64,000 nt of DNA from Shigella phage SF1-1, in sequence record PQ571307; one strand, written 5' to 3'. Under the pieces are notes generated by a model. That model was not told the DNA's origin. It made no database searches and saw only the letters and a program-made list of their open reading frames with translations. Shown here one piece after another: positions 40,592 through 41,479 of the stretch (the first letter of the stretch is position 1; the number at the start of each line of letters is the position of its first letter). The position numbers were made by a program, and so were the translations under genes.

Positions 40592-41479
40592 ATGTCCGTA
40601 ATTAATACTGAAACTGATCGTAAAGGCAAAACCGTAACTTATGCAACTGGTATCGTAGACTACGTTAAGCTGGATAAATTCGCCGAACCTAAAACTTTTC
40701 ATTGGGAAGGAAAAACGATTGTTTCAACTCACCGAGCTTCTCTTGTTCTGAAAGAGAAAGGTGCTAAACCAGATGAGAAAGGTGTTTGGATTTCTCTTGG
40801 TGACATTGAACTGAAAGAAGGTTATGAAAACCTGCAAGTCAAAGAAGGTGATAATTGGATCACTATTGAAAAAGGTGTAGAAGTAAGTATTGATATTGAT
40901 CGCGTTGATAATAAAGGCGGTAAAACTTACTACAATACTAAAAAATCTCGTATTACAGTATTGTCTACCGATGGTGTTCAGAAGTCTAACAAATCTTCCG
41001 GCAATAAAGGTTCCAACGATGCTGCTCCTAAACAGTCCTATAAAAAACGTGATACTGTAGGTCTGGAAACTGGTCACGCAGTAAATGGTGCACTGGAACT
41101 GATTCGTAATGGTGTTAAAGGCGATGCTTTCGATATCGCTGGGGTTGTTCAATCTGCAACTGTCACGCTGAAATCTGAAATTGCTGAATCTCGTGGCGTT
41201 GATATTAATGATTATGATCTTGGGGCATCTGTTGGTCACGCTATTCTCAATGCTTGTAAAGACCATACCATTAAGACTGTATCTGTAGAAGATCTGATTG
41301 ACTCTGCTCGTAAAGTTCTAGCTCTGTCTGATAAAGTTGCTGCTGCCATTCGTGGTTCCGCAGAACAACCTAAGAAAGAAGAGAAGAAAGAAGTTAAAAA
41401 ACCTGAACCACAACCAGAACCAACTCCAAGTAATCAAGAAGAACCTCCAATGGACTTCGATGATGATATTCCATTCTGA
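40592..41479 (+). CDS. single-stranded DNA-binding-like protein with host-SSB-type acidic C-terminal tail
   Basis: 295 aa; Gly/Lys-rich linker then PEPQPEP and C-terminal MDFDDDIPF, which matches the terminal residues of E. coli SSB as I recall them; GAGGAG RBS. Confidence 0.55.
   Translation: MSVINTETDRKGKTVTYATGIVDYVKLDKFAEPKTFHWEGKTIVSTHRASLVLKEKGAKPDEKGVWISLGDIELKEGYENLQVKEGDNWITIEKGVEVSIDIDRVDNKGGKTYYNTKKSRITVLSTDGVQKSNKSSGNKGSNDAAPKQSYKKRDTVGLETGHAVNGALELIRNGVKGDAFDIAGVVQSATVTLKSEIAESRGVDINDYDLGASVGHAILNACKDHTIKTVSVEDLIDSARKVLALSDKVAAAIRGSAEQPKKEEKKEVKKPEPQPEPTPSNQEEPPMDFDDDIPF

What the first reader, a model, noticed from the sequence alone, without database searches (positions are those of the whole stretch)
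40592..41479. SSB-like protein whose last nine residues copy the host SSB C-terminal tail (MDFDDDIPF)
The body does not look like a canonical bacterial SSB OB-fold at the primary-sequence level and is more reminiscent of phage gp2.5-type proteins, yet the extreme C-terminus matches the acidic tip that E. coli SSB uses to recruit its partner proteins. The phage protein could therefore recruit or sequester host SSB-interacting proteins (exonuclease I, RecQ, PriA, the polymerase chi subunit and others) while coating phage ssDNA. It also implies an enterobacterial-type host.
Basis: partly seen in the sequence, partly recalled or inferred. Interest (0 to 1): 0.6.

Follow-up and report, generated by a model that had tools for sequence, protein, structure and literature searches.

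The report
Phage SSB with host SSB tail
This E. coli phage gene encodes the phage's only recognisable single-stranded-DNA-binding protein, built from an unusual body but ending in an exact copy of the 12-residue tail that the host's own SSB uses to recruit repair and replication enzymes; the feature is real, but identical genes are already in GenBank and a 2026 preprint described the same design in a relative.

Summary
ORF 40592-41479 (+) encodes 295 aa.

The window is a Phapecoctavirus (phAPEC8-like, ~150 kb E. coli myovirus). Identical proteins are in GenBank, labelled 'hypothetical' or 'SSB'.

Sequence profiles match SSB only in the tail. AlphaFold2 predicts four parts:
- a divergent OB fold (aa 1-125);
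- a four-helix domain (aa 155-254);
- a disordered Pro/Glu/Lys linker;
- the acidic tip.

It is not gp2.5-like. No other SSB is found in a complete relative genome. The gene closes the polymerase/primase-helicase operon.

All 120 homologue representatives keep an [ILVC]PF tip, down to about 30% identity.

It is homologous to Bas52_0087. A 2026 preprint describes that protein as 'SSB-like with an FDDDIPF C-tip' and as a trigger of the DRT10 defence, which is modulated by exonuclease I.

Verdict: a real, single-OB member of an already noticed but biochemically untested phage SSB family.

A side finding may be newer. In many relatives, and in unrelated phage SSBs, the tip is capped by a conserved peptide (APIGLQY...) that is often associated with an HNH endonuclease gene. 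The window carries the uncapped allele.

The parts
40580..40585 (+). Ribosome-binding site GAGGAG, 6 nt upstream of the ATG
   Evidence: Read directly from the sequence.
40592..41479 (+). Whole CDS, 295 aa plus TGA stop: the SSB-like protein
   Evidence: ORF list and sequence. It is 98-99% identical in nucleotides to more than 60 Phapecoctavirus records and 100% identical in protein to several. PHROG 4477 matches at E 2.7e-97.
40592..40966 (+). N-terminal beta domain (aa 1-125): predicted OB fold, the putative ssDNA-binding domain
40967..41053 (+). Inter-domain linker (aa 126-154), disordered. Longer homologues carry a second small beta domain here. The linker ends with the conserved R153-D154.
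   Evidence: pLDDT is below 50 for aa 135-149. The alignment shows a ~70-aa insertion in the 375-425-aa homologues. D154 aligns with Bas52_0087 D252, a DRT10 escape site.
41054..41353 (+). Four-helix domain (aa 155-254) with two G-H-A-x-N-x-A motifs. Function unknown; oligomerisation or cooperativity is proposed.
41354..41440 (+). Disordered Pro/Glu/Lys-rich linker (aa 255-283), the counterpart of the intrinsically disordered linker of bacterial SSB
   Evidence: pLDDT is 44-62 from aa ~261 onward. Length and sequence vary among homologues.
41441..41476 (+). Acidic tip EPPMDFDDDIPF (aa 284-295), identical to E. coli SSB residues 167-178
   Evidence: The 12 codons differ from E. coli ssb at 6 synonymous and 0 non-synonymous sites.
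41477..41479 (+). TGA stop directly after Phe295: the tip is the free C-terminus (uncapped allele with no endonuclease gene)
   Evidence: A 99%-identical variant (L002) continues with APIGLQYGRNFLHCF followed by an HNH endonuclease gene.
41511..41534 (.). Bidirectional terminator hairpin between this gene and the convergent tail-fibre-like gene
   Evidence: Terminator-like sites were found on both strands. The same hairpin is retained after the endonuclease insertion in L002.

Best explanation
This is the phage's own single-stranded-DNA-binding protein. It is a single-OB member of the SSB-like family shared by rV5-, phi92- and phAPEC8-like myoviruses (PHROG 4477; Bas52_0087 is a two-beta-domain member).

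Proposed mechanism:
- The N-terminal OB fold coats phage ssDNA at the replication fork and on recombination intermediates (inferred).
- The flexible Pro/Glu/Lys linker presents a free C-terminal tip identical to that of host SSB.
- Host enzymes that dock on the SSB C-terminus (exonuclease I, RecQ, RecJ, RecO, PriA, RNase HI, Pol III chi, and others) are thereby recruited to, or competed for by, phage ssDNA. This is inferred from the established biochemistry of the SSB-Ct peptide.
- The same tip may also contact the phage's T7-like DNA polymerase or primase-helicase, as in T7.

Shown here: the sequence facts, the predicted folds, conservation, genomic context and homology.

Not shown for any family member: ssDNA binding, oligomeric state or partner binding.
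For: - The tip is identical to host SSB over 12 residues.
- Selection, not recent DNA transfer, maintains it: 6 synonymous and 0 non-synonymous differences from E. coli ssb.
- All 120 homologue representatives keep an acidic [ILVC]PF tip while the folded domains diverge to ~30% identity; 27 end exactly in MDFDDDIPF.
- An OB fold is predicted with high confidence and matches ssDNA-binding OB proteins. Basic and aromatic residues are conserved.
- The gene is the last one of the operon that holds the primase/helicase and the family-A DNA polymerase. The Bas52 and phi92 homologues also lie downstream of the polymerase.
- It is the only SSB annotated in the complete 149-kb ESCO25 genome.
- A bacterial-SSB OB profile finds nothing better than E=2 in all ORFs of the window and that genome, and no other ORF there ends in an acidic ...[ILVC]PF tip (a looser scan finds one tip-like ...EEDDIPW end).
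- It is homologous to Bas52_0087 (E 9e-16 over both shared domains). That protein is required to trigger DRT10, and exonuclease I dosage modulates that defence.
Against: - No biochemical data exist for any member of the family.
- In 17 of 120 homologue representatives, including phi92 and a 99%-identical Phapecoctavirus variant, the tip is not terminal but capped by 14-17 further residues. A free tip is therefore not indispensable to the family, which weakens the idea that host-partner docking is its essential role.
- The phage encodes its own polymerase, helicases, ligase and exonucleases. Which host partner it would need is unclear.
Confidence: 0.65

Rival explanations
1. It is the replicative SSB, but the tip serves phage-internal contacts: it docks on the phage's own T7-like DNA polymerase or primase-helicase, and/or folds back onto the OB fold to regulate ssDNA binding. 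Identity to the host tail then reflects shared ancestry or module exchange among SSB genes, not host-protein hijacking.
For: - The phage has a family-A, T7-like polymerase and a primase/helicase in the same operon.
- In T7, the acidic Phe-terminated gp2.5 tail binds the T7 polymerase and helicase and competes with ssDNA for the OB fold. This is established knowledge and is summarised.
- Capped alleles exist and persist in viable, isolated phages such as phi92 and rV5.
- Some homologues share up to 16 residues (APSNEPPMDFDDDIPF) with E. coli SSB, more than partner binding is known to need. This suggests descent or exchange of a module.
Against: - An exact 12-residue match to the host tail has been kept through saturating synonymous change. 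That is more constraint than T7-type systems need, since gp2.5 works with a quite different tail.
- DRT10 activation by the homologue is modulated by exonuclease I. This fits an interplay with a host tip-binding enzyme.
Confidence: 0.2
2. It is mainly a decoy or anti-host factor. Abundant tip-bearing protein titrates host SSB-interacting nucleases and helicases (ExoI, RecJ, RecQ) away from host SSB, or shields phage 3' ends. ssDNA coating would be secondary.
For: - The Bas52_0087 preprint proposes competition with, or displacement of, SbcB/ExoI.
- Overexpressing SbcB weakens DRT10 restriction.
- The tip is identical to the host's.
Against: - Conservation of an OB fold and a helical domain across the family, and the position in the replication operon, are more than a decoy needs.
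- No other SSB is available to the phage.
- Expressing Bas52_0087 alone had no effect on host viability.
Confidence: 0.1
3. It is not an SSB at all but a recombination mediator or annealing protein, or another DNA-end-binding factor that happens to carry an SSB-like tail.
For: - Tails of the SSB type also occur on non-SSB proteins.
- A neighbouring nucleotidyltransferase-like ORF ends in ...EEDDIPW.
Against: - The DdrC match is no better than a match to a designed helical repeat.
- There is no similarity to any annealase family in Pfam, PHROGs or NCBIfam.
- The phage would be left with no SSB.
Confidence: 0.05

Closest known systems
Bas52_0087 (QXV84166.1) of Escherichia phage RudolfGeigy (Vequintavirus), and PHROG 4477. 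Described in bioRxiv 10.64898/2026.04.29.721553 as an 'SSB-like' trigger of the DRT10 (UG17) defence.
   Same: - Homologous over the N-terminal beta domain (35% identity) and the helical domain plus tail (33% identity), E 9e-16.
- Same order of parts: OB, helical domain, disordered linker, FDDDIPF tip.
- Both lie downstream of the DNA polymerase gene.
- The escape-mutation site D252 is the conserved D154 here.
   Different: - The window protein is 295 aa against 408 aa. It lacks the second small beta domain inserted between the OB fold and the helical domain.
- Its tip matches host SSB over 12 residues, whereas Bas52_0087 shares only FDDDIPF.
- Whether it triggers DRT10 was not tested, although the preprint reports that DRT10 also restricts Stephanstirmvirinae.
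E. coli SSB (bacterial SSB family, Pfam PF00436 / TIGR00621)
   Same: - The same functional layout: OB fold, disordered linker, acidic tip.
- The last 12 residues are identical.
   Different: - There is no sequence similarity outside the tail.
- An extra four-helix domain is present.
- The linker is Pro/Glu/Lys-rich instead of Gly/Gln/Pro-rich.
- The oligomeric state is unknown; E. coli SSB forms a tetramer through its OB domains.
T7 gp2.5
   Same: Both are phage-encoded SSBs with a single OB fold and an acidic tail ending in Phe, working alongside a family-A polymerase and a primase-helicase.
   Different: - There is no detectable profile similarity (probability 0.2%).
- The tail sequence is different (...DEDGDF).
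- gp2.5 has no helical domain.
Bacterial-type SSBs encoded by temperate and other phages (Salmonella phage epsilon34 gp35, Vibrio phage BT-1011 SSB)
   Same: They are phage-encoded and carry the same NEPPMDFDDDIPF-type tail.
   Different: - Those are true PF00436-type homologues of host SSB (their first ~110 residues align with E. coli SSB; compare). The window protein shares only the tail.
- Both of these examples carry the post-tip cap (APIGLQY... / APVTLPF...), which the window protein lacks.

Membership tests
Bacterial SSB family (PF00436 / TIGR00621) | N-terminal domain homologous to the SSB OB domain at sequence level | tested here: not met
   Pfam gives no SSB hit. NCBIfam PRK09010 matches only aa 254-295 and scores 22.8 bits against a cut-off of 260. 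A family profile against PDB, and hhalign against E. coli SSB, match the tail only.
Bacterial SSB family (PF00436 / TIGR00621) | OB fold (structure) | tested here: met
Bacterial SSB family (PF00436 / TIGR00621) | Disordered linker followed by the acidic tip ...DDDIPF at the free C-terminus | tested here: met
   pLDDT is 44-62 from aa ~261 onward. The terminal EPPMDFDDDIPF is followed by TGA.
Bacterial SSB family (PF00436 / TIGR00621) | Homotetramer that binds ssDNA | not testable with these tools
   This needs purified protein (EMSA, SEC-MALS).
PHROG 4477 / Bas52_0087-type SSB-like proteins of rV5-, phi92- and phAPEC8-like phages | Sequence homology across the OB and helical domains | tested here: met
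   PHROG 4477 matches at E 2.7e-97. BLASTP against Bas52_0087 gives E 9e-16 and 8e-13 for the two domains. There are 137 homologues in the large protein database and matches in 337 phage records.
PHROG 4477 / Bas52_0087-type SSB-like proteins of rV5-, phi92- and phAPEC8-like phages | Two beta (OB-like) domains, as described for Bas52_0087 | tested here: not met
   The ~70-aa second beta domain is absent here. It appears as alignment insertion columns ~215-290 only in the 365-425-aa members. The window protein is a single-OB variant, as are all Stephanstirmvirinae members examined here.
PHROG 4477 / Bas52_0087-type SSB-like proteins of rV5-, phi92- and phAPEC8-like phages | Acidic ...[ILVC]PF tip after a disordered region | tested here: met
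   120 of 120 representatives have it: 103 terminal and 17 capped.
PHROG 4477 / Bas52_0087-type SSB-like proteins of rV5-, phi92- and phAPEC8-like phages | Position in the replication gene cluster, downstream of the DNA polymerase | tested here: met
   Window/phAPEC8, ESCO25, Bas52, phi92, and L002/L003.
PHROG 4477 / Bas52_0087-type SSB-like proteins of rV5-, phi92- and phAPEC8-like phages | Triggers the DRT10 defence | not testable with these tools
   This is known only for Bas52_0087, by genetics.
T7 gp2.5-type SSB | Homology or closest structural similarity to gp2.5 | tested here: not met

The most novel reading that the evidence does not exclude
The tip-coding 3' end of this gene is the homing site of a mobile cassette. 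The cassette is a zinc-finger/HNH endonuclease gene preceded by an in-frame, selectively conserved peptide (AP[IV]GLQY plus 7-10 aa) that caps the SSB tip.

The cassette moves between unrelated phage SSB genes: this OB-plus-helical family, bacterial-type SSBs of lambdoid and Vibrio phages, and small OB SSBs. Gene conversion during homing could help spread and homogenise the host-like NEPPMDFDDDIPF tail among otherwise unrelated phage SSBs.

The capped and uncapped forms would be two functional states of phage SSBs: tip exposed to host partners or defence sensors, or tip masked. The window carries the uninvaded, uncapped allele.
Probability: 0.35. Interest if true: 0.65.

Novelty: new member of a known kind. 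Interest (0 to 1): 0.4.

Why it matters
The rV5-, phi92- and phAPEC8-like myoviruses are common E. coli, Salmonella and Klebsiella phages and are used in therapy cocktails. The 2013 rV5 genome paper lists their replication proteins but names no SSB.

Three points follow from recognising this protein as their SSB:
- A non-canonical body carrying the exact host tip shows that the SSB tip is an exchangeable module.
- It gives a concrete handle, a 12-residue peptide, for asking which host genome-maintenance enzymes these phages borrow or block.
- It links the family to sensing by defence systems. Bas52_0087 triggers DRT10, and exonuclease I is a modulator.

The practical gain is modest. The annotation already exists in some GenBank records, and the idea is in a 2026 preprint for a homologue. 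What is still missing is biochemistry.

Tried and rejected
- Recent capture of the tail from host ssb DNA: rejected. Six of the 12 codons differ synonymously.
- A second, canonical SSB elsewhere in the phage: not found. I read the annotation of the complete ESCO25 genome and ran an offline hmmsearch with a bacterial-SSB OB profile over all ORF segments of the window and ESCO25 (best E=2.4).
- Defence-system protein: PADLOC gave no hit.
- Helical domain shared with another SSB type: the 'Salmonella phage 40 SSB' match turned out to be a fragment of the same family in a poorly assembled Vequintavirinae record.
- Extension as an assembly chimera or read-through artefact: rejected. It is present in curated isolates (phi92, rV5, ECO340P2), and its codons diverge synonymously.
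- Extension as a mere by-product of the endonuclease start signal: not sufficient. The peptide stays conserved where the endonuclease gene is absent, and even where the ATG is destroyed (BT-1011 CAG TAC GGG).
- Extension folding back on the protein: AF2 leaves it disordered, pLDDT 47-55.
- Foldseek against PDB gave no significant match (best E 0.034). BFVD returned only uncharacterised family members. The afdb50 library was unavailable.
- The database search with the tail-plus-cap profile returned only short fragments. It was useful for showing taxonomic spread but not for counting.
- Literature searches found no description of the cap, or of an SSB-targeted homing endonuclease.

Full report
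**What is there**

It runs from ATG at 40592 to TGA at 41477-41479 on the + strand and encodes 295 aa. A GAGGAG ribosome-binding site lies at 40580-40585. A bidirectional terminator hairpin at 41511-41534 separates it from a convergent tail-fibre-like gene.

The protein ends ...PSNQEEPPMDFDDDIPF. E. coli K-12 SSB, translated from NC_000913.3, ends ...PSNEPPMDFDDDIPF.

**Origin of the window**

The gene is 98-99% identical in nucleotides to more than 60 records of Phapecoctavirus. This genus (subfamily Stephanstirmvirinae) comprises phAPEC8-like E. coli myoviruses of about 150 kb. The protein is 100% identical to several database entries. Most records call it 'hypothetical protein', and a few call it 'SSB'.

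**Is the body an SSB?**

At sequence level it is not:
- Pfam finds nothing.
- The SSB models of PHROGs and NCBIfam touch only residues ~250-295.
- phmmer and a 53-sequence family profile against all PDB sequences hit E. coli SSB only in the tail.
- hhalign of the family profile against E. coli SSB aligns only the last 15 columns (probability 96%).
- hhalign against T7 gp2.5 gives nothing (probability 0.2%).

The family as a whole is PHROG 4477, 'unknown function' (E 2.7e-97).

The AlphaFold2 model built on 53 homologues (mean pLDDT 83) shows five segments:
- an all-beta domain, aa 1-125 (pLDDT ~84-94);
- a disordered stretch, aa ~130-150;
- a four-helix domain, aa 155-254 (pLDDT of about 90 or more);
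- a disordered Pro/Glu/Lys-rich linker;
- the acidic tip.

- MCM10 and Stn1;

Basic and aromatic positions conserved in the OB domain (K34, K41, H47, W66, K84, W89, K111, Y114) are what an ssDNA-binding face would need. That reading is an inference.

The helical domain is the most conserved part of the family. It carries two G-H-A-x-N-x-A motifs and has only generic structural matches.

**Is it the phage's SSB?**

The gene closes the operon that carries the primase/helicase and the family-A DNA polymerase. The phi92 and Bas52 homologues likewise lie downstream of the polymerase.

I read the full annotation of a complete relative, ESCO25 (149 kb). This is the only SSB annotated there. The genome also carries its own polymerase, helicases, ligase, exonucleases and RdgC.

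An offline hmmsearch with a bacterial-SSB OB profile, run over every ORF segment of the window and of ESCO25, found nothing better than E=2. No other ORF ends in an acidic ...[ILVC]PF tip. A looser scan of the window picks up one tip-like end...EEDDIPW, described at the end of this report. The 2013 rV5 genome paper lists replication proteins but no SSB.

**Is the tail conserved?**

It is. All 120 homologue representatives carry an acidic [ILVC]PF tip. They reach down to about 30% identity and include the 365-425-aa forms of the rV5-like phages. Of these, 27 end exactly in MDFDDDIPF and 61 in DDDIPF. Some share up to 16 residues with E. coli SSB (APSNEPPMDFDDDIPF).

At the DNA level, the 12 identical codons differ from E. 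coli ssb at six synonymous sites and no non-synonymous site. Selection on the peptide maintains the identity, not recent transfer from the host.

**What is known**

A preprint of April 2026 (bioRxiv 10.64898/2026.04.29.721553) reports the following:
- Escape mutants of the Vequintavirus Bas52 (RudolfGeigy) from the DRT10 (UG17) reverse-transcriptase defence map to Bas52_0087.
- They propose that it interferes with exonuclease I (SbcB), whose dosage modulates DRT10.

I fetched Bas52_0087 (408 aa). It is homologous to the window protein over both shared domains (35% and 33% identity, E 8e-13 and 9e-16). It carries an additional ~70-aa beta domain between the OB fold and the helical domain. The two escape sites, D252 and Y351, align with the conserved D154 and with A250 in the last helix.

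The family occurs in 337 phage records. These cover Phapecoctavirus, Justusliebigvirus (phi92 gp156), Vequintavirus (rV5, FV3), and CR3-, PVP-SE1- and related Klebsiella, Serratia and Pectobacterium phages.

The window protein is therefore a single-OB member of a family whose SSB-like nature and host-like tip have already been noticed. No ssDNA binding, oligomeric state or partner has been measured for any member.

**Mechanism**

My best explanation (confidence ~0.65) has these parts:
- The OB fold coats phage ssDNA.
- The helical domain provides oligomerisation or cooperativity.
- The flexible linker presents a free tip identical to the host's.

The last 6-9 residues of SSB are sufficient for docking to ExoI, RecQ, PriA, chi and others. 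This is established knowledge, cited and in the abstracts listed. The phage protein should therefore engage the same host proteins on phage ssDNA, either recruiting them or competing for them.

The main rival (~0.2) is that the tip chiefly serves the phage's own T7-like replisome, or auto-regulation, as in T7 gp2.5. A pure decoy role (~0.1) and a non-SSB role (~0.05) fit the conserved folded domains and the lack of any other SSB less well.

**An unexpected complication seen in relatives**

In 17 of the 120 representatives the tip is not terminal. It is followed by 14-17 residues beginning AP[IV]GLQY. Examples:
- a variant 99% identical to the window protein (P0001/L002: ...DDDIPFAPIGLQYGRNFLHCF);
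- Phapecoctavirus ECO340P2;
- phi92 gp156;
- rV5 ORF214.

A tblastn search with this peptide found it in 231 phage records. It also sits at the end of SSBs with unrelated bodies:
- bacterial-type SSBs of Vibrio phage BT-1011 (...SFDDDIPFAPIGLQYGRNLLHVI);
- Salmonella phage epsilon34 (...DDDIPFAPVTLPFPRHAIHAI);
- the small OB SSB of phage morffagbaw;
- SSB fragments from Proteus, Providencia, Salmonella, Klebsiella and Tatumella genomes.

In L002, L003, rV5 and morffagbaw, an endonuclease gene starts inside the peptide-coding stretch. The L002 and morffagbaw endonucleases are 49% identical over their full length (E 2e-53), although their SSB bodies are unrelated. rV5 shares only the 44-aa N-terminal zinc-finger module.

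Across 10 loci I saw three states:
- neither cap nor endonuclease (window, Bas52);
- cap plus endonuclease (L002, L003, rV5, morffagbaw);
- cap only (phi92, ECO340P2, BT-1011, epsilon34).

I never saw an endonuclease without a cap.

Between the window and L002, 4 of the 18 differences in the gene fall in its last 30 nt. This is as expected for a short co-conversion tract.

All of this fits a homing-endonuclease cassette that targets the conserved tip-coding DNA. The peptide, however, is itself under purifying selection:
- L002 and phi92 differ at 6 synonymous and 0 non-synonymous sites in 15 codons.
- The peptide stays conserved where the endonuclease is gone, and even where its ATG is destroyed.

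AF2 leaves the cap disordered. A capped tip should not fit the host SSB-Ct pockets, because they hold the free carboxylate of the terminal Phe. That is established knowledge and was not tested here. What the cap does is unknown. I found no description of it in the searchable literature.

The window carries the uncapped allele, so this does not change the verdict on the finding. It does show that a free host-like tip is not indispensable for the family.

**Verdict**

- The finding is a new member of a known kind, of moderate interest.

**Other small points**

- The nucleotidyltransferase-like ORF two genes upstream (39544-40137) ends in a tip-like ...LEEDDIPW. This ending is not conserved in phi92 or L003.
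- T7 gene 2.5 is also followed directly by an endonuclease gene, gene 2.8. That endonuclease gave no BLASTP match to the ones above.

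Noticed in passing
Relatives: L002:4886-4933, L006 (phi92):3401-3448, L014 (ECO340P2):1622-1666, L015 (rV5):~1819-1863, L007 (BT-1011):1522-1566, L008 (epsilon34):~1516-1566. The window has TGA at 41477 instead.: A conserved 14-17-aa peptide (AP[IV]GLQY...) directly follows the ...DDDIPF tip in 17 of 120 homologue representatives and in many unrelated phage and prophage SSBs. It diverges by synonymous changes (6 synonymous, 0 non-synonymous between L002 and phi92), so it is selected as a peptide. 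AF2 predicts it to be disordered. It would mask the free C-terminal Phe. I found no description of it in the literature I searched.
   Followed up: partly
L002:4905-5399, L003:4968-5396, L015 (rV5 ORF213):1835-2458, L016 (morffagbaw):1538-1978: A zinc-finger/HNH endonuclease gene (phrog_2340) starts inside the cap-coding stretch right behind SSB genes of unrelated type. The L002 and morffagbaw enzymes are 49% identical although their SSB bodies are unrelated. The gene is polymorphic (present or absent) among 99%-identical Phapecoctavirus genomes. This looks like a homing endonuclease cassette aimed at the SSB tip-coding DNA. No locus had the endonuclease without the cap.
   Followed up: partly
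window 39544-40137 (+): The nucleotidyltransferase-like protein two genes upstream (phrog_10174; weak PolyA_pol head-domain hit) ends in ...RLEEDDIPW, an acidic-aromatic C-terminus resembling the SSB tip. It is identical in L002 but not conserved in phi92 gp158 (...NNEEFKI) or L003 (...VEASFDF).
   Followed up: partly
Homologues P0068-P0120 and Bas52_0087 (L005:35982-37208): The 365-425-aa members from rV5-like and related phages carry an extra ~70-aa small beta domain (consensus ...KVYGEI.SI..G.A.V.......V.L......V.VGGRL.A.....G.I.SGFKAY) between the OB fold and the helical domain. All Stephanstirmvirinae members examined here lack it.
   Followed up: partly
window 41066-41104 and 41225-41263 (aa ~159-171 and ~212-224): The helical domain contains two copies of a G-H-A-x-N-x-A motif (ETGHAVNGALEL and ASVGHAILNACKD). 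This suggests an internal duplication of a helical hairpin. These are the most conserved residues of the whole family.
   Followed up: no
T7 NC_001604.1 9158-10276 (L017, L018): T7 gene 2.5 (SSB) is followed without a gap by gene 2.8, annotated as an endonuclease. This is another case of an endonuclease gene sitting right behind a phage SSB gene. BLASTP gave no match between gp2.8 and the endonucleases above.
   Followed up: partly
Database records MG065650 ('Campylobacter phage B15') and OP562383 ('Acinetobacter phage vB_AbaM_ABPW7'): Records labelled as Campylobacter or Acinetobacter phages carry this gene at 99-100% identity to E. coli Phapecoctavirus genomes. The host labels are probably wrong.
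   Followed up: no
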